Below are positions 2,778-29,733 of a DNA stretch of 36,732 nucleotides, in pieces; positions within the stretch are counted from its first letter, which is position 1, and every line of letters begins with the position of its first letter. This stretch comes from Promethearchaeota archaeon (GTDB taxonomy: Archaea; Asgardarchaeota; Lokiarchaeia; Sigyniarchaeales; SOKP01). Under the pieces are notes generated by a model. The model was not told where the DNA came from. It saw only the letters and a list, made by a program, of their open reading frames with translations, and did not search any database. Both the position numbers and the translations under genes were made by a program. The DNA lies in NCBI GenBank assembly GCA_004524535.1, contig SDNY01000028.1, forward strand, positions 1 through 36,732. Direction: 5' to 3'.

Positions 2778-4118
2778 ATGTCAGAATATGTAAGAAGAGT
2801 CTATGAAAATATAGTTGATAAAAATCCCTGTCAAGCGGAATTTCATCAAGCAGTAAAAGAAGTTCTTGAATCTTTAACGCCTGCTCTTGAGGCACATCCA
2901 ATATTTGAAAAAAACAAAGTTTTAGAAAGACTTGTTGAGCCCGAACGTCAAATTATTTTTCGAGTACCTTGGGTTAATGACAATAACGAGATTCAAATTA
3001 ATAGAGGTTTTCGAGTTCAATTCAATTCAGCAATAGGTCCTTATAAAGGTGGACTAAGATTTCATCCCTCAGTTTATTTAGGGATCATTAAATTTCTGGG
3101 ATTTGAACAGATTTTTAAAAATTCCCTTACAGGATTGCCAATGGGAGGCGGTAAAGGGGGTTCAGATTTCGATCCTAAGGGTAAATCTGATATGGAAGTT
3201 ATGAAATTTTGTCAATCTTTTATGACAGAGCTTTTTAGACATGTCGGACCAGATAGCGATGTTCCAGCGGGAGATATAGGTGTAGGTGCAAGAGAAATCG
3301 GATATTTATATGGTCAATATAAAAAAATTGTCAATGTCTCTGATGGGGTTCTTACAGGTAAAGGTTTAGAATATGGAGGATCTCTTATAAGACCAGAAGC
3401 AACTGGGTACGGTGCGGTCTATTTTGCTCAAGAAATGCTAAAAGTTAGAAGAGAGGAAATAAAAGGAAAAATATGTACAATTTCTGGTTCTGGAAATGTA
3501 GCACAGTATACATTAGAGAAATTAAATCAACTGGGCGCAAAAGTAATTTCGTTATCTGATTCCAATGGTTCAATTTATGATCCAGATGGTATTGGTAATA
3601 GTAAATTTGATTATGTCTTGCAGCTGAAGAATATAAGAAGGGGAAGAATTAAGGAGTATGCGGAAGAATTTAATGTCGAATATCGTCCAGATAAAACACC
3701 TTGGGATATAGAATGTGATCTTGCATTTCCAAGCGCTACACAGAATGAAATTGAGAAAAATGATGCGCAAAATTTAGTAGATAATGATGTAATTGCGGTT
3801 ACTGAAGGTGCTAATATGCCCACGACAATCGAAGCAACAGAAATATTTTTGGATTCTGGAGTTGCTTTTGGTCCAGGTAAAGCTGCTAATGCTGGAGGAG
3901 TAGCTACTTCGGGATTGGAAATGTCGCAAAATGCACTTAAATTATCATGGTCTCGTGAAGAAGTAGATCAGAGATTGCATGATATCATGATTAATATTCA
4001 TAATGCTGCCTATCAAGCGTCAAAGAAATATGCTAATGCTGGAAACTATGTTGTTGGAGCAAACATAGCAGGATTTATGAAAGTTGCGAATGCGATGATT
4101 GCTTTAGGTCATTGGTAA
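2778..4118 (+). CDS. gdhA: NADP-specific glutamate dehydrogenase (E. coli GdhA-like family)
   Basis: EFHQAV, GPYKGGLRFHP, GGGKGGSDFDPK, DVPAGDIGVG, RPEATGYG, GSGNVA, KAANAGGVA. The real start is probably ATG 2778 (MSEYV), not 2697. Confidence 0.93.
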   Translation: MSEYVRRVYENIVDKNPCQAEFHQAVKEVLESLTPALEAHPIFEKNKVLERLVEPERQIIFRVPWVNDNNEIQINRGFRVQFNSAIGPYKGGLRFHPSVYLGIIKFLGFEQIFKNSLTGLPMGGGKGGSDFDPKGKSDMEVMKFCQSFMTELFRHVGPDSDVPAGDIGVGAREIGYLYGQYKKIVNVSDGVLTGKGLEYGGSLIRPEATGYGAVYFAQEMLKVRREEIKGKICTISGSGNVAQYTLEKLNQLGAKVISLSDSNGSIYDPDGIGNSKFDYVLQLKNIRRGRIKEYAEEFNVEYRPDKTPWDIECDLAFPSATQNEIEKNDAQNLVDNDVIAVTEGANMPTTIEATEIFLDSGVAFGPGKAANAGGVATSGLEMSQNALKLSWSREEVDQRLHDIMINIHNAAYQASKKYANAGNYVVGANIAGFMKVANAMIALGHW

Positions 4119-5530: not shown

Positions 5531-6886
5531 CTATAAATTTACTCGTCCCATAGCTCTGAAATTCAAAGCTTTATTAAATTCATCATAGTCATAAATTCTT
5601 CTGCCATCAATTAAATTAGGAGTCTTCATATGCTTTTTAAAAATATCTGGTGTCAAGCCCTTAAATTCATCCCAATCAGTTATCAAAAGTGCGCATTCCG
5701 AATCTTTCAATGCTTCTTCAATTGACTCAGCATATTTAATTTTATCTCCAATGGCTTCTTTTGCAGATTTTTTAGATTTAGGATCATATCCCACTATATC
5801 AGTGACATTTCTTCTTAATAATTCATCTATTACCCTTATGCTCGGAGCTTCCCTCATATCGTCAGTACCCGGTTTAAAGGAAAGACCAAGTAAAGTGATT
5901 TTTTTACCTTCTAATTTACCGATTAACCCTTCTGCAATATCTAAAATACGGATAGCTCTGAGATCATTTATTTCTAAAACTGCTTCTAATAATTTGGAAA
6001 CATAACCTTTCGATCTCGACCACTTCGTAATGGCATTAACATCTTTGTGGAAACAAGCCCCTCCAAAACCTACTCCCGCACCTAAGAATCTATGATTAAG
6101 TCTATAATCTAAACCCACACCTTCCATTACCTGAACAACATCAACATTTGGAACAAGTTCAGCCAAGTTAGCAAATTCATTAGCATATGATATTTTTGTG
6201 GATAACAAGCAATTATTTCCATATTTTACTAGTTCGGCACTTTCTAAATTCATTCTCTTGATTGGGCAATTTTTGAGATGATCTCCATAGAAGTATTCAT
6301 AAAATTCTTGAAGCATCGCTCCACTTTTCTCATCTATTGAACCAATAATTATACGGTCAGGTCTAAGAGTATCTTCAATGGATCGTCCCTCTGCTAAGAA
6401 CTCAGGTTGCATACATAGCCCAAAATCTTTTCCTGGTTCTTTTCCTGAAACTTCTGTTATAGTTTTACCTACTAGATTCCTAGTTGTTCCCGGTACTACA
6501 GTCGATCTCACAACAATTAAACGGTATTTATCACTTTTTTTCAAAGCTTCACCAATCTCTTTAGCAGTACTTTCGATAAAACCTAAATTGATCGATGTAT
6601 CCGGTCGCATCGGTGTTCCCTGTGTAATCATCATTATGTCTGTGTCTAAAACAGCTTGGACAGGATCAGTCAAACATTTAAGAAGTTCTGGTTTTTGTTC
6701 CTTTACTTCAGACAGCATTTCAGCTAAACCTTCTTCATAAAAAGGAGATCTATAATCGTTTATTATAGCAGCTTTCTTTTCATTATGAGTAGAAGCTATA
6801 ACTTTAATATCTTTTAGGGCAAAACATGCTGCGGAACATAGCCCAATAAAACCAGTTCCTAAAATTGAAACGCTATATTTATACAT
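5531..6886 (-). CDS. ugd: UDP-glucose/GDP-mannose 6-dehydrogenase
   Basis: Rossmann GTGFIG, STVVPGT, PEFLAEG, catalytic GFGGACFHKD, GLSFKPGTDDMRE, DGRR. Confidence 0.9.
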   Translation of the reverse strand: MYKYSVSILGTGFIGLCSAACFALKDIKVIASTHNEKKAAIINDYRSPFYEEGLAEMLSEVKEQKPELLKCLTDPVQAVLDTDIMMITQGTPMRPDTSINLGFIESTAKEIGEALKKSDKYRLIVVRSTVVPGTTRNLVGKTITEVSGKEPGKDFGLCMQPEFLAEGRSIEDTLRPDRIIIGSIDEKSGAMLQEFYEYFYGDHLKNCPIKRMNLESAELVKYGNNCLLSTKISYANEFANLAELVPNVDVVQVMEGVGLDYRLNHRFLGAGVGFGGACFHKDVNAITKWSRSKGYVSKLLEAVLEINDLRAIRILDIAEGLIGKLEGKKITLLGLSFKPGTDDMREAPSIRVIDELLRRNVTDIVGYDPKSKKSAKEAIGDKIKYAESIEEALKDSECALLITDWDEFKGLTPDIFKKHMKTPNLIDGRRIYDYDEFNKALNFRAMGRVNL

Positions 6887-27797: not shown

Positions 27798-29200
27798 TTA
27801 TCTAAAATTTTTTGGACCTTCTCCAAGCTTCCTGTAGATAAACCCCCGATCTTCGACAGATTTTTTATTAAATATATTACGACCATCAATTATGATTGGT
27901 TTTTCTTTTTTTACTTTATTTCTTATATCGTCCAAATCGAGATTATAATACTGTTTATGATTGGTCGCAAAGATTAAAACATCTGCATTTGAAACCGCTT
28001 CGTTAAGATCCCTTGTCAAATCGGTCTCTTTATAATCTCGTTCTTTGACATATGGATCGTGCGCAATATATTGAATATTATGAGAATGATAACGATTCTT
28101 TAAAGTCCATACTATTCTTTCAGTAGGTGTGTTTCTCGTATCATCTGTGTCAGCTTTATAGGCAACCCCCATAAGAGCAATTTTAAAATTATCATGTTTA
28201 TTTGCTTCCTTTAGAGCATCTTCCATTAACTCTATCATATGATCTGGCATGAAATCGTTTAATTCTCTTGCTTTTAATAGAATATCTGAATTATGCATAT
28301 GTTTAGTATAGTTTCGATGTCCATACACCAATAAATGAGGATCTTTAGTTAAGCAATGACCCCCTACTCCTGAACCAGGATAATGCATCATTCTATCATG
28401 CCTATGGTTAATTAATTCTATAATTTCAAAGATATTTCGATTGAAATCTTCAGCAACTAAGGCCATCTCGTTAGAAAACGCAATATTCACATCTCTATAG
28501 GTGTTTTCAATGCATTTTGTCAATTCTGCGGTAAGCGTGTCAGTAACTTGTAGCTCCTTTTTAACAACTTTCCCATATAAAAATTTTCCTTTCTCGTTTG
28601 CCTCTGGACATCCCCCTCCAATAACTCTGGGAAAATCTGTAATATATTCTATCAATTTTCCAGGCATAACACGTTCAAAAGAAAAAACTAAATAGAAATC
28701 TTCTCCTCTCTTCATTCCACTTCCCTTCTCTAAAATAGGTTGAACTATATTGTTAGTGGTTCCAGGAGCGACTGTTGATTCGATAATTACAGTAGCACCC
28801 TTTTTTAAACGAGGAGCAACTAATTTTGAAACATCCTTTAAAGAATCATAACGTGGAATTCTTAAATCATCAACTGGGGTCTGTACATCAATCAAAATAA
28901 AGTCAGCGCTATTAACGTCGTCGTATTTATCTGTAACCTTAAATTTTCCATTTTTTACAACTCGTTCAATTAACTCATCTAATCCTGGTTCCTCTCCTTC
29001 AAAAGGATTTTTTCCAGCATTAAGCCAGTCGATCTTCCAGCCAGATCTTTTTGATCTTCTTTGAATTCCAGTGACATAAAAGTTTGGTACATCTGCTAAT
29101 AAGGCAGCCATAGGGATTCCGATTAGTAGTTTGAAAGAAATTTTCTAGACTCATACCCCATCCCAATGACAACAATATTGGTTCTTTCTTGCGATATCAT
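27798..29200 (-). CDS. wecC: Nucleotide-sugar dehydrogenase (UDP-ManNAc/GlcNAc 6-dehydrogenase type), 457 aa after removal of a 29-nt intervening sequence; exon 1 29200-29152, exon 2 29122-27798
   Basis: Exon 1 gives MISQERTNIVVIGMGY. Exon 2 gives (V)GIPMAALLAD, ESTVAPGTT, ERVMPG, ENTYRDVNIA, catalytic GVGGHCLTKD and AYKADTDDTRN. The 437-aa track ORF lacks the GxGxxG motif. Confidence 0.85.
29123..29151 (-). other. Candidate archaeal BHB-type intron in an mRNA (29 nt)
   Basis: RNA AGUCUAGAAAAUUUCUUUCAAACUACUAA. Central 4-bp helix GGUA/UACU with 3-nt bulges UG^A and AA^U, flanked by exon and intron helices. Excision restores GMGYVG. Confidence 0.75.
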
Positions 29201-29343
29201 AATCTTTTACTCTTTAATCTAATTGATCTATTAAATTAAATTTGGTTTATCTATTTTGCTTTTTTTCTCAATGCTAAATAAATATAAATAATATAACTAG
29301 TACTTAGTTATTTAATTATTAAATAATAAAAGTGAATTAAATC

Positions 29344-29733
29344 TTGTCATCTTATAAACGATCAAAAATTTGGATATCAATCACAATTCCATTATTAATA
29401 GTCTCAATATTGCTTACCGCGATTTTTAGAGGCGCCCGATGGAACTCTATTCCATTATTCGCTTCACTTATTATGTTAATATTATTCTTCCCCATACTTA
29501 TCATTGATATAAAAAAGGCTTCAGGGGATAAGAAAGTTAAAAAAGATGAAGCTAAAAAAATGGAGCTTAAACGTGCTGAGATAGAAATGGAGAAGGAAAG
29601 GTTAGAAGTGGAAAAATTGAAATTACAGCAAGGTATTCGAGATGAAGCTAGTAATACTTGCAGATTTTGTGGTGAAGCCATTGTGGGATCTCCTAAAATA
29701 TGCCCCAACTGTGGAACTTCTTTAGAAGAATAA
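29344..29733 (+). CDS. 2-TM membrane protein with coiled coil and C-terminal zinc ribbon
   Basis: Two TM helices, an E/K-rich helix, CRFCG...CPNCG; TTG start. Confidence 0.75.
   Translation: MSSYKRSKIWISITIPLLIVSILLTAIFRGARWNSIPLFASLIMLILFFPILIIDIKKASGDKKVKKDEAKKMELKRAEIEMEKERLEVEKLKLQQGIRDEASNTCRFCGEAIVGSPKICPNCGTSLEE

What the first reader, a model, noticed from the sequence alone, without database searches (positions are those of the whole stretch)
29107..29170. Candidate bulge-helix-bulge intron inside a protein-coding gene (nucleotide-sugar dehydrogenase)
Seen (minus strand): ...GUC AUU GGG AUG GGG UAU G^AGUCUAGAAAAUUUCUUUCAAACUACUAA^UC GGA AUC CCU AUG GC. Removing 29151-29123 (29 nt) turns two out-of-frame pieces into VVIGMGYVGIPMAALLAD, an intact NAD-binding GxGxxG motif. 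Independently, the junctions fold into hBHBh': central helix GGUA(29157-54)/UACU(29128-25), bulges UGA(29153-51) and AAU(29124-22), intron helix GUCU-A-GAAA/UUUC-AAAC (one C-A mismatch), a closing G29158-C29121 pair and an exon helix GUCAU-U-GGGAU/AUCCC-U-AUGGC. Known: archaeal splicing endonuclease EndA cuts after the second nucleotide of each 3-nt bulge and RtcB ligates. Applying that rule gives exactly the frame-restoring junction. The well-known archaeal mRNA case is crenarchaeal cbf5; I know of none in this gene family or in Asgard metabolic genes. Inference: endonuclease-type mRNA splicing in a likely Asgard archaeon, invisible to gene callers, which report an N-truncated protein.
Basis: partly seen in the sequence, partly recalled or inferred. 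Interest (0 to 1): 0.95.

Follow-up and report, generated by a model that had tools for sequence, protein, structure and literature searches.

The report
tRNA-type mini-intron in Asgard dehydrogenase gene
A 29-base insert that breaks a sugar-dehydrogenase gene of an Asgard archaeon is most likely a small intron cut out of the messenger RNA by the tRNA-splicing enzymes, and the same genome carries similar inserts in at least eight other genes, including the essential translation factor EF-2.

Summary
Window 29151-29123 (minus strand) is a 29-nt insert in the NAD-binding motif of a UDP-glucose/GDP-mannose-dehydrogenase-family gene. Removing it gives one open 457-codon frame.

Alone, the fold is not better than chance (z -0.53), and the helices flanking the bulges are marginal. 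The support is comparative:
- Nine other Asgard alleles carry 30-31-nt inserts at the same codon, with strong compensatory covariation (96% of cells paired; 8 of 9 inner-stem pairs change on both sides).
- The window's gene and its 16-codon exon 1 remain under purifying selection.
- A contig about 90% identical from another study keeps the insert.
- The genome has two EndA genes and RtcB.
- At least eight other genes, including single-copy EF-2, are split by similar inserts.

Against: the window's copy is the weakest of the class (11.6 bits with the family model; inner stem -0.5 kcal/mol), and no RNA data could be laid.

Verdict: probably (about 0.78) a functional, relaxed bulge-helix-bulge (BHB) mRNA intron, shifted one nucleotide relative to its relatives. 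The papers I searched report such coding-sequence introns only for crenarchaeal cbf5. Earlier notes of this scan saw the kind in other Asgard genes.

The parts
27798..29200 (-). Whole interrupted gene (pre-mRNA coding region) of a UDP-glucose/GDP-mannose dehydrogenase family enzyme
   Evidence: Pfam PF03721, PF00984 and PF03720 on the long ORF. After excision there is one 457-codon frame. It is 98% aa identical to the intron-less L004.
29152..29200 (-). Exon 1: start codon plus 16 codons and the first base of the Val codon (49 nt)
   Evidence: There are 7 synonymous and 2 non-synonymous differences from L004.
29123..29151 (-). 29-nt intron. It begins with A and ends with AA, and both exon frames are closed by stops inside it.
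   Evidence: It is absent from 76 of the 80 orthologous loci read. It is homologous to the 30-nt intron of L099.
27798..29122 (-). Exon 2, including the stop codon
   Evidence: pN/pS against L004 is 0.068, and the window's own branch has 15 synonymous and 2 non-synonymous changes.
29154..29157 (-). Central helix H, 5' strand (GGUA, exon 1)
   Evidence: Pairs 4 of 4 with 29128-29125.
29151..29153 (-). 5' bulge UGA. The predicted cut is after its second base, between 29152 and 29151.
   Evidence: The cut rule is established knowledge of EndA, also stated in the preprint passages read.
29129..29150 (-). Inner segment h' (imperfect hairpin): 2 pairs, a C.A mismatch, 1 pair, a bulged A, 4 pairs, and a 5-nt loop
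   Evidence: -0.5 kcal/mol, z -0.1.
29125..29128 (-). Central helix H, 3' strand (UACU, intron)
   Evidence: A relative in run X3 has U to C at 29125, which turns a G.U pair into G-C.
29122..29124 (-). 3' bulge AAU. The predicted cut is after its second base, between 29123 and 29122.
29107..29121 (-). 3' strands of the outer (exon) helices: C29121 closing pair, 29117-29113 and 29111-29107
   Evidence: The synonymous-site pair 29162-29115 is G-C here. This position is a standard pair in 10 of 10 intron-bearing alleles against 40 of 72 intron-less alleles.
29158..29170 (-). 5' strands of the outer (exon) helices: G29158, 29164-29160 and 29170-29166
29117..29220 (-). Tract of raised divergence from the sister allele L004: 20 nt of leader, exon 1, and the first 6 nt of exon 2, around the intron
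   Evidence: 16 of 75 differences in the tract against 48 of 1311 in the rest of the gene, Fisher p = 7e-8. In this tract the window is no closer to L004 (36/45) than to L099 or L005 (37/45 each).

Best explanation
The 29 nt at 29151-29123 (minus strand) are a bulge-helix-bulge (BHB) mini-intron in the pre-mRNA of a UDP-sugar dehydrogenase gene.

Proposed mechanism:
1. The transcript folds so that the last exon-1 bases pair with the last intron bases (GGUA with UACU), forming the 4-bp central helix.
2. Exon codons on either side (Gly-Met and Gly-Ile-Pro) form the outer helix.
3. The heterotetrameric splicing endonuclease (two EndA-family genes) cuts after the second base of each 3-nt bulge.
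4. RtcB joins the exons.
5. The result is a Val codon split 1/2 across the junction and an intact NAD-binding motif.

Shown here: the insert, the frame restoration, the presence of the enzymes, the covarying intron family at this codon, selection on both exons, and similar inserts in essential genes of the same genome.

Inferred: that this particular, relaxed copy is cut and ligated in vivo.

The copy is a derivative of the 30-nt, phase-0 intron seen in other alleles, displaced by one nucleotide. It came in, or was lost from the sister lineage, together with a short recombination tract.
For: 1. Excision at the BHB-rule sites is the one junction that gives a Val codon and a single 457-codon frame.

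2. Nine other alleles of the same gene carry 30-31-nt inserts at this codon: 4 of the 398 other Asgard genomes searched by pattern (6 further hits were unrelated genes; the reversed-pattern control gave 0), and 5 of 18 metagenome pattern hits (13 unrelated).
- On their alignment, 96.3% of cells pair, against 21-47% when partners are slid.
- 8 of 9 inner-stem pairs change on both sides.
- 0 of 500 shuffles reach the observed values.
- All contain in-frame stops.

3. The window's intron is homologous to L099's but sits 1 nt further 3'. Two details fit a working shifted register. The base at 29152 is G, where all 9 relatives have A as the intron's first base. The 3' H strand pairs 4 of 4 with the shifted exon strand.

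4. Selection:
- The window branch has 15 synonymous and 2 non-synonymous changes (P = 4.5e-9 under neutrality).
- pN/pS against L004 is 0.068.
- Exon 1 has 7 synonymous and 2 non-synonymous differences.
- There is no close paralogue in the 99%-complete genome.

5. The exon-helix pair at synonymous third positions is a standard pair in 10 of 10 intron-bearing alleles (window G-C) against 40 of 72 intron-less alleles. The sister L004 has A.C there.

6. The insert is in an independent assembly of the probable source run. It is also in a contig about 90% identical from another study, where the one listed change in the insert turns a G.U pair of H into G-C.

7. There are two EndA genes plus RtcB. 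Passages of PMC5829648 say Asgard archaea have the broad-specificity (alpha-beta)2 enzyme with the L1 loop.

8. In the same genome, Pfam shows single domains split by inserts of about 30 nt in EF-2, two AMP-binding enzymes, Elp3, argininosuccinate synthase, RNase HII, a Ras-like GTPase and a DeoC-type aldolase.
- EF-2, ArgG, RNase HII and Elp3 are single-copy.
- The EF-2 insert recurs in 16 of 134 family genomes, with a conserved H helix and a partly covarying stem that tolerates internal mismatches.

9. Forcing the BHB core costs 1.8 kcal/mol, inside the 0-4.9 range of the Pfam-supported introns.
Against: - No RNA evidence. The one RNA run listed (share 0.06) laid nothing.
- The fold is not better than shuffles (z -0.53).
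- The copy is the weakest of its class. The inner stem is -0.5 kcal/mol (z -0.1), against -2.6 to -9.7 kcal/mol (z -3 to -8) for the 11 other G000 candidates.
- The constrained fold does not form the pairs next to the bulges.
- The covariance model built from the 9 other alleles gives it only 11.6 bits (E 0.9 in the window). The model aligns it in the ancestral register, which would remove 31 nt and break the frame.
- It fails the h' >= 7/8 filter of my own genome scan.
- It is 29 nt long where relatives are 30-31 nt.
- Purifying selection on the branch cannot exclude a very recent inactivation.
- The genome-wide excess of frame-restoring motifs is small: 100 loci at the predicted cut against 70-96 at displaced cuts. 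Two looser scans showed no excess over a mirror-geometry control.
Confidence: 0.78

Rival explanations
1. Decayed intron. The insert descends from a working 30-nt BHB intron, but indels and stem mismatches have made it unspliceable. The gene is then a very young pseudogene, or yields only an N-truncated product from Met21 that lacks half of the NAD-binding loop.
For: - Inner stem of -0.5 kcal/mol, z -0.1.
- 11.6 bits with the family model, aligned in a frame-breaking register.
- Length of 29 nt rather than 30-31 nt.
- The flanking helix pairs are not formed in the constrained fold.
- The closest relative, L004, and all 8 other genomes of the genus lack the insert, so it could be recent.
Against: - There are 15 synonymous and 2 non-synonymous changes on the window's own branch, and 7 and 2 in exon 1.
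- There is no other defect in 457 codons.
- The same 29-nt form persists in a relative about 90% identical, with a pair-strengthening change.
- The G at 29152 and the 4 of 4 H pairing are exactly what a shifted working register needs.
- The EF-2 introns of relatives tolerate internal stem mismatches.
- There is no close paralogue to take over.
Confidence: 0.17
2. Translational recoding. Ribosomes bypass or frameshift across the 29 nt (as in phage T4 gene 60, recalled), without RNA splicing.
For: A hairpin and an in-frame stop follow the break, which is superficially like a bypass signal.
Against: - There are no matching take-off and landing codons in the window.
- In the 30-nt alleles, the only repeated in-frame codon (GGC) is followed directly by a stop.
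- The covariation follows the BHB geometry, including pairs between exon and intron bases.
- The same architecture recurs in many unrelated genes with different flanking codons.
Confidence: 0.02
3. Assembly or sequencing artefact, or a chimeric contig.
For: The sequence comes from a metagenome-assembled genome in 198 contigs.
Against: - An independent contig assembly of the probable source run carries the insert at depth 52 with 0 differences over 801 nt.
- A different study's contig also spans it.
- Homologous inserts occur in 9 other records.
Confidence: 0.01

Closest known systems
cbf5 pre-mRNA intron of Crenarchaeota (Desulfurococcales and Sulfolobales; Watanabe 2002; Yokobori 2009, PMC2738675: abstract and passages read)
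   Same: Both are introns inside a protein-coding sequence, recognised through a BHB-like structure by the splicing endonuclease. Both occur in lineages with a hetero-oligomeric, broad-specificity EndA. Both show gain and loss among relatives, and both are missed by gene prediction.
   Different: - The host gene is a sugar dehydrogenase, not cbf5.
- The phylum is Asgard.
- The distribution is patchy: 8 intron rows need 8 changes on the gene tree. The cbf5 abstract infers one ancestral gain and at least two losses.
- The same genome holds at least 8 further interrupted genes.
- cbf5 splicing was shown experimentally. Here it is inferred.
Archaeal tRNA introns, including the many non-canonical ones of Asgard archaea (bioRxiv 10.64898/2026.10.13.758758: abstract and passages read)
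   Same: The motif, the predicted cut rule and the enzymes are the same, and the size is similar. The preprint reports repeated gains at sites where the exon can complete the motif. Here, the conserved Gly-Met ... Gly-Ile-Pro codons supply the outer helix. Aragorn calls an intron in 13 of the 22 tRNAs it finds in this genome.
   Different: The substrate is an mRNA, and the junction must keep a reading frame. The passages I read in the preprint do not deal with protein genes, and its supplements were not open to me.
BHB intron in the 5' UTR of Haloferax volcanii HVO_1309 (PMC7714728: passages read)
   Same: It is an mRNA processed by the tRNA splicing endonuclease, with a circular excised intron and in-vitro cleavage.
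   Different: It is 46 nt long and lies in the untranslated leader, so no reading frame is at stake. It is in a euryarchaeon with a different EndA type.
IRE1-dependent HAC1/XBP1 mRNA splicing in eukaryotes (recalled; mentioned in PMC13149111, passages read)
   Same: It works alike in outline: a protein endonuclease removes a very short intron from an mRNA, an RtcB-type ligase joins the exons (RtcB role recalled), and the reading frame changes.
   Different: The nuclease is different (IRE1, not EndA), and it recognises stem-loops rather than BHB. It is a regulated stress response. There is no homology of the introns.

Membership tests
Archaeal BHB (splicing-endonuclease) intron | [quoted passage not shown] | tested here: met
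   GGUA/UACU pairs 4 of 4 (one G.U), with bulges UGA and AAU, in the canonical strand order.
Archaeal BHB (splicing-endonuclease) intron | Helices h and h' directly flanking the bulges (canonical hBHBh') | tested here: inconclusive
   h is one G-C pair, then a 1x3 loop, then 5+5 bp of exon helix. h' is 2 bp, then a C.A mismatch and a bulged A. These pairs are not formed in the constrained fold. This counts as a relaxed motif. Broad-specificity (alpha-beta)2 EndA is reported to cut such motifs (PMC5829648 passages).
Archaeal BHB (splicing-endonuclease) intron | Cutting after the second base of each bulge and joining the ends gives a functional product | tested here: met
   In silico, this gives one 457-codon frame and restores the motif read in intron-less orthologues.
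Archaeal BHB (splicing-endonuclease) intron | The host encodes EndA and an RtcB ligase | tested here: met
   PF01974 hits twice (107.9 and 70.7 bits) and PF01139 once (561 bits) in G000.
Archaeal BHB (splicing-endonuclease) intron | The structure is kept by compensatory changes among homologous introns | tested here: met
   Across 9 alleles, 96.3% of cells pair, 8 of 9 h' pairs change on both sides, and 0 of 500 shuffles reach the observed values. The window's own copy was not in that alignment. For it there is only one G.U to G-C change, in the X3 contig.
Archaeal BHB (splicing-endonuclease) intron | Excision and exon ligation observed in RNA | not testable with these tools
   Only one RNA run was listed (share 0.06), and nothing from it was laid.
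cbf5 pre-mRNA intron family | The host gene is cbf5 (pseudouridine synthase) of Desulfurococcales or Sulfolobales | tested here: not met
   The host is a UDP-glucose/GDP-mannose dehydrogenase family gene. Relatives carry Promethearchaeota titles. It works like the cbf5 intron but is not a member.
UDP-glucose/GDP-mannose dehydrogenase family (host gene) | N-terminal NAD-binding, central and UDP-binding domains | tested here: met
   PF03721 (96 bits), PF00984 (79 bits) and PF03720 (83 bits). The NAD-binding match starts at profile position 35 unless exon 1 is joined on.
Pseudogene | Further disabling changes and relaxed selection | tested here: not met
   There is no other stop or frameshift. 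pN/pS is 0.068, and the window branch has 15 synonymous and 2 non-synonymous changes. Exon 1 has 7 and 2. A very recent inactivation is not excluded.
Self-splicing intron, intein, or insertion element | A ribozyme core, a protein-splicing domain, or terminal repeats with a transposase | tested here: not met
   The insert is only 29 nt. There is no Rfam match in the window and no other copy in the genome.

The most novel reading that the evidence does not exclude
Asgard archaea of this family routinely splice messenger RNAs with the tRNA machinery. A population of roughly 30-nt BHB mini-introns sits inside the most conserved motifs of many protein genes, including essential single-copy EF-2. 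Each intron's 3' end is tailored to pair with its own exon. These introns come and go between near-identical alleles through short recombination tracts, and they can slide by one nucleotide while keeping the protein unchanged, as in this window. This would be a protein-dependent, spliceosome-free layer of interrupted protein genes in the closest prokaryotic relatives of eukaryotes.
Probability: 0.55. Interest if true: 0.92.

Novelty: new variant of a known kind. Interest (0 to 1): 0.82.

Why it matters
**What is in print.** In the papers I could search (passages read), the only archaeal intron inside a coding sequence is that of crenarchaeal cbf5. A 2020 paper says so explicitly (PMC7714728).

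**What is new here.** The same mechanism appears in an Asgard archaeon: in a metabolic gene, as one of at least nine interrupted genes in one genome, and with population-level gain and loss.

**Practical consequences.**
- Gene callers truncate or split such genes. Here they would lose the NAD-binding loop.
- As a result, Asgard proteomes and metabolic reconstructions are systematically wrong at these loci.

**Conceptual consequences.**
- It gives a testable system for how short introns enter, persist in and move within protein genes without a spliceosome, in the lineage closest to eukaryotes.
- The window's copy adds a candidate case of one-nucleotide intron sliding.

**Relation to this scan.** Earlier notes of this scan reported the same kind of insert in iolM, cobO and a thiolase gene of other Asgard genomes. 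This finding therefore adds a new gene family and a genome-wide view, not a first sighting within the scan.

Tried and rejected
- **RNA evidence.** The single RNA run offered (X23, share 0.06) laid nothing on window 28600-29400. This says nothing either way.
- **Single-sequence folding and Rfam.** The fold has z -0.53. Rfam and tRNA scans of the window gave no matches.
- **First genome scan** (perfect 4-bp H, h' >= 3, h >= 2, inserts of 14-110 nt, both frames >= 40 codons). It gave 1220 hits against 1234 for a mirror-geometry control, with the same stem-length distributions. I first read this as 'no other split genes'. That was wrong: the background of adjacent genes hides about ten true cases, and the perfect-H rule excluded some.
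- **Second scan** (24-40 nt, H >= 3/4, h' >= 7/8). It gave 2589 hits against 2669 for the mirror control, so it also did not discriminate.
- **Third scan.** This used displaced-cut controls and an 'A...AA' filter chosen after seeing the alleles. It gave 100 loci against 70-96. True cases had to be confirmed one at a time by Pfam.
- **Unresolved candidates.** C100 (prismane/CO-dehydrogenase family) and C165 were inconclusive by Pfam. C189 and C180 were not scanned. At C146, the downstream piece looked to me like the start of a separate gene (by eye).
- **Family covariance model.** It did not pick out the window's insert (11.6 bits). Its hits at C103 and C40 are open frames, not introns.
- **Other anomalies in orthologues.**
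  - L039 is an assembly duplication.
  - L076 is a run of N.
  - L077 has a deletion.
  - None of these is an intron.
- **Donor of the recombination tract.** It was not found among 90 alleles, and gain against loss could not be polarised.
- **Upstream indel.** A global alignment misplaced it. BLAST HSPs were used instead.
- **Gene tree.** The tree is the quick one, because the careful search did not finish. L096 (187 aa) was left out, and L085, L090 and L106 were omitted as duplicates or near-duplicates.
- **Translational bypass.** Rejected for lack of matching take-off and landing codons.
- **Not attempted.** No structure or complex prediction was attempted, as nothing hinged on one.
Full report
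**1. The observation**

On the minus strand, an ATG at 29200 opens a short frame of 16 sense codons of the gene plus 9 from the insert. It ends at a TAA inside the insert. The long ORF that an ORF finder reports (27798-29111, 437 aa) lies in another frame. It belongs to the UDP-glucose/GDP-mannose dehydrogenase family. Its NAD-binding match begins only at profile position 35 of 187, so the first strand and glycine loop are missing.

Removing exactly 29151-29123 (29 nt) gives one frame of 457 codons. This restores the motif that intron-less orthologues read as IGMGYVGIP.

By itself the fold is not significant:
- MFE -16.5 kcal/mol, z -0.53.
- Loose BHB-like motifs are common in this AT-rich sequence, with 8 in 101 nt.

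**2. The organism and the enzymes**

The window is contig C81 of a 3.66-Mb archaeal genome rated 99% complete. It has two EndA-family genes and one RtcB. Passages of PMC5829648 state that Asgard archaea have the (alpha-beta)2 endonuclease with the L1 loop, which is associated with broad substrate specificity. Nearly all of the 80 closest orthologous loci carry Promethearchaeota or other Asgard record titles. Aragorn finds only 22 tRNAs, 13 of them with a called intron. This fits the heavily interrupted tRNA genes described for some Asgard classes (preprint passages).

**3. Orthologues**

Of the 80 loci:
- 76 read straight through the motif. This includes L004, which is 98% identical in protein and 96.3% in DNA to the window.
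- 2 could not be assessed.
- 2 (L028, L063) carry 30-nt inserts at the same codon.

An exon-anchored pattern found the insert in 5 of 399 Asgard genomes including G000. Six other hits were unrelated genes, and the reversed-pattern control gave 0. The same approach found 5 further metagenomic alleles among 18 hits; the other 13 were unrelated genes.

The nine non-window alleles share one architecture:
- The exon bases GG[C/U/G]U pair with the last four intron bases before a 3' bulge AAG.
- The 5' bulge is A[U/C]A.
- The inner stem has 9-10 positions of unrelated sequence.
- Each has an in-frame stop.

On their alignment:
- 96.3% of cells form standard pairs, against 21-47% when partners are slid by 1-3 columns.
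- 8 of 9 inner-stem pairs show changes on both sides.
- One pair between an exon synonymous site and an intron base covaries.
- 0 of 500 shuffles reach the observed values.

This is strong evidence that the RNA shape is under selection, which a dead insertion would not show.

**4. The window's own copy**

It is homologous to the 30-nt intron of L099, the closest intron-bearing allele (84.6% aa over the 289 residues its contig covers). But it is 29 nt long and sits one nucleotide further 3'.

For a working shifted register:
- In the shifted register, H pairs 4 of 4.
- The base at 29152 is G, and it becomes the first base of the Val codon. All nine relatives have A there as the first intron base.

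Against it:
- The inner stem is poor: 2 pairs, a C.A mismatch, a pair, a bulged A, then 4 pairs. It folds at -0.5 kcal/mol with z -0.1.
- The constrained fold does not form the pairs adjacent to the bulges.
- A covariance model built from the nine other alleles scores it at only 11.6 bits. The model aligns it in the ancestral register, which would remove 31 nt and break the frame.

Softening the negatives:
- Forcing the BHB core costs 1.8 kcal/mol, within the 0-4.9 range of the Pfam-supported introns of the same genome.
- The EF-2 introns of relatives tolerate one or two internal stem mismatches.

**5. Selection and history**

- Against L004, exon 2 has 38 synonymous and 10 non-synonymous differences (pN/pS 0.068).
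- Polarised with L005 and L006, the window's own branch has 15 synonymous and 2 non-synonymous changes (P = 4.5e-9 if neutral).
- Exon 1 differs from L004 by 7 synonymous and 2 non-synonymous changes, so it still behaves as coding sequence.
- The only paralogue in the genome is 25% identical (window 5588-6874).
- The third-position pair of the exon helix (Gly GGN with Ile AUH) is a standard pair in 10 of 10 intron-bearing alleles, including the window (G-C). It is paired in 40 of 72 intron-less alleles, and the sister L004 has A.C (Fisher p = 0.005; the alleles are related, so this overstates).

On a quick maximum-likelihood tree, the 8 intron-bearing rows need 8 changes and are no more clustered than shuffled labels. 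Several have nearly identical intron-less sisters.

Around the window's intron, a tract of about 75 nt (leader, exon 1, first 6 nt of exon 2) differs from L004 at 16 of 75 positions. The rest of the gene differs at 48 of 1311 (p = 7e-8). In this tract the window is no closer to L004 than to distant alleles. The intron was therefore gained, or lost in the sister, by recombination with an unsampled allele.

**6. DNA support**

An independent contig assembly of the probable source run carries the insert at depth 52 with no difference.

A second study (X3) holds two forms:
- Intron-less relatives.
- A 235-nt contig with 22 differences that spans the insert without a deletion. The one listed change in the insert turns the G.U pair of H into G-C.

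Many differences were not listed by the tool, so the full state of that copy is unknown.

**7. The same genome has more of them**

The family model's best hit in G000 is a 30-nt, stop-containing insert in an acetyl-CoA-synthetase-like gene. A scan tuned to this class gave 100 frame-restoring loci at the predicted cut, against 70-96 at displaced cuts. That is a small excess, so candidates were checked singly.

Pfam shows one domain split by the insert in these genes:
- EF-2: GTP_EFTU positions 2-35 | 49-187.
- Two AMP-binding enzymes: in C74 (L117) profile 6-193 | 223-377; in C52 (L119) 6-321 at the exon 1 end, with AMP-binding_C in exon 2.
- Elp3.
- Argininosuccinate synthase: the profile starts at position 12.
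- RNase HII: the profile starts at position 9.
- A Ras-like GTPase: the profile starts at position 4.
- A DeoC-type aldolase.

Two more candidates scanned by Pfam (C100, C165) are inconclusive, and two (C189, C180) were not scanned.

EF-2, ArgG, RNase HII and Elp3 have no second copy. The EF-2 insert is at the same codon in 16 of 134 genomes of the family (reversed-pattern control 0). It is always 30 nt with an in-frame stop, an invariant H helix and a partly covarying stem. An organism cannot do without EF-2, so mRNA splicing at such motifs must operate in this lineage. That raises the prior for the window's copy.

**8. Rivals**

- A decayed, unspliced intron remains possible (about 0.17), for the reasons given in section 4.
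- Translational bypass lacks take-off and landing codons and does not explain exon-intron covariation (about 0.02).
- An artefact is excluded (about 0.01).

**9. Comparison with what is known**

Four full-text searches were run, and passages were read. Together they give cbf5 of Crenarchaeota as the only coding-sequence BHB intron in archaea, plus one 5'-UTR case in Haloferax. A 2020 paper says this explicitly.

The present element works like the cbf5 intron but is not a member of that family. It differs in host gene, phylum, patchy distribution, multiplicity per genome and the one-nucleotide shift.

Earlier notes of this scan (unchecked AI notes) describe the same kind of insert in iolM, cobO and a thiolase gene of other Asgard genomes. 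One of them suggested arrival on a mobile cassette. Here I found a recombination tract but no nuclease gene next to it.

**10. Verdict**

Confidence is 0.78, interest 0.82, and novelty is a new variant of a known kind.

Noticed in passing
G000 contigs (last exon-1 base, strand): C129:9461(-), C8:15448(-), C98:21999(-), C98:11147(-), C52:18564(-), C74:9900(-), C161:11881(-), C16:3516(+); loci L117-L125: Eight other protein genes of the same genome are split by 30-32-nt BHB-like inserts inside a single Pfam domain: EF-2, argininosuccinate synthase, RNase HII, Elp3, two AMP-binding enzymes, a Ras-like GTPase and a DeoC-type aldolase. Each insert starts with A and ends with AA (that was a filter of the scan), and each has a central helix tailored to its own exon.
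   Followed up: partly
L129-L144 (EF-2 loci of 16 genomes): The EF-2 insert is present at the same codon in 16 of 134 genomes of the family (3 of 13 genera). It is always 30 nt, with an in-frame stop and an invariant UCAG/CUGA helix. Some copies have one or two mismatches in the middle of the inner stem.
   Followed up: partly
G000 C100:12034(-), C165:60474(-), C189:15065(-), C180:283(-); loci L120, L126-L128: Four further frame-restoring candidates remain unresolved. Two were inconclusive by Pfam: a prismane/CO-dehydrogenase family gene (C100) and a gene with ChsH2-type OB-fold and zinc-ribbon domains (C165). Two (C189, C180) were not scanned.
   Followed up: partly
window 29292-29730: About 439 nt directly upstream of the gene are absent from the sister locus L004, and about 17 nt of L004 match both borders. 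The segment is essentially one small ORF (29344-29733, + strand, 129 aa). It has only sub-threshold Pfam hits: a double zinc ribbon at the C-terminus and membrane-like segments. It is separate from the divergent tract around the intron.
   Followed up: partly
window about 27468; L004 4645-6230: L004 holds about 1.6 kb just downstream of the dehydrogenase gene that the window lacks, so both flanks of this gene are variable between near-identical genomes.
   Followed up: no
window 5588-6874 (-): A second, uninterrupted member of the UDP-glucose/GDP-mannose dehydrogenase family lies in the same window. It has all three Pfam domains and is 25% identical to the interrupted gene.
   Followed up: partly
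window 7729 (+) and 17910 (-): Two more motif hits of the tuned scan lie in this window, with inserts of 29 and 26 nt. They look like hairpins between neighbouring genes rather than introns, but they were not examined.
   Followed up: no
G000 whole genome: Aragorn finds only 22 tRNA genes in a 99%-complete genome, 13 of them with a called intron (two calls have implausibly long introns). Many tRNA genes are probably too interrupted to be recognised.
   Followed up: no
L039 2931-4743; L077 2769-3801; L076 about 3878-3887: Orthologous loci with anomalies that are not introns: a partial duplication of the gene start in L039, loss of residues 60-166 in L077, and a run of N in L076.
   Followed up: partly
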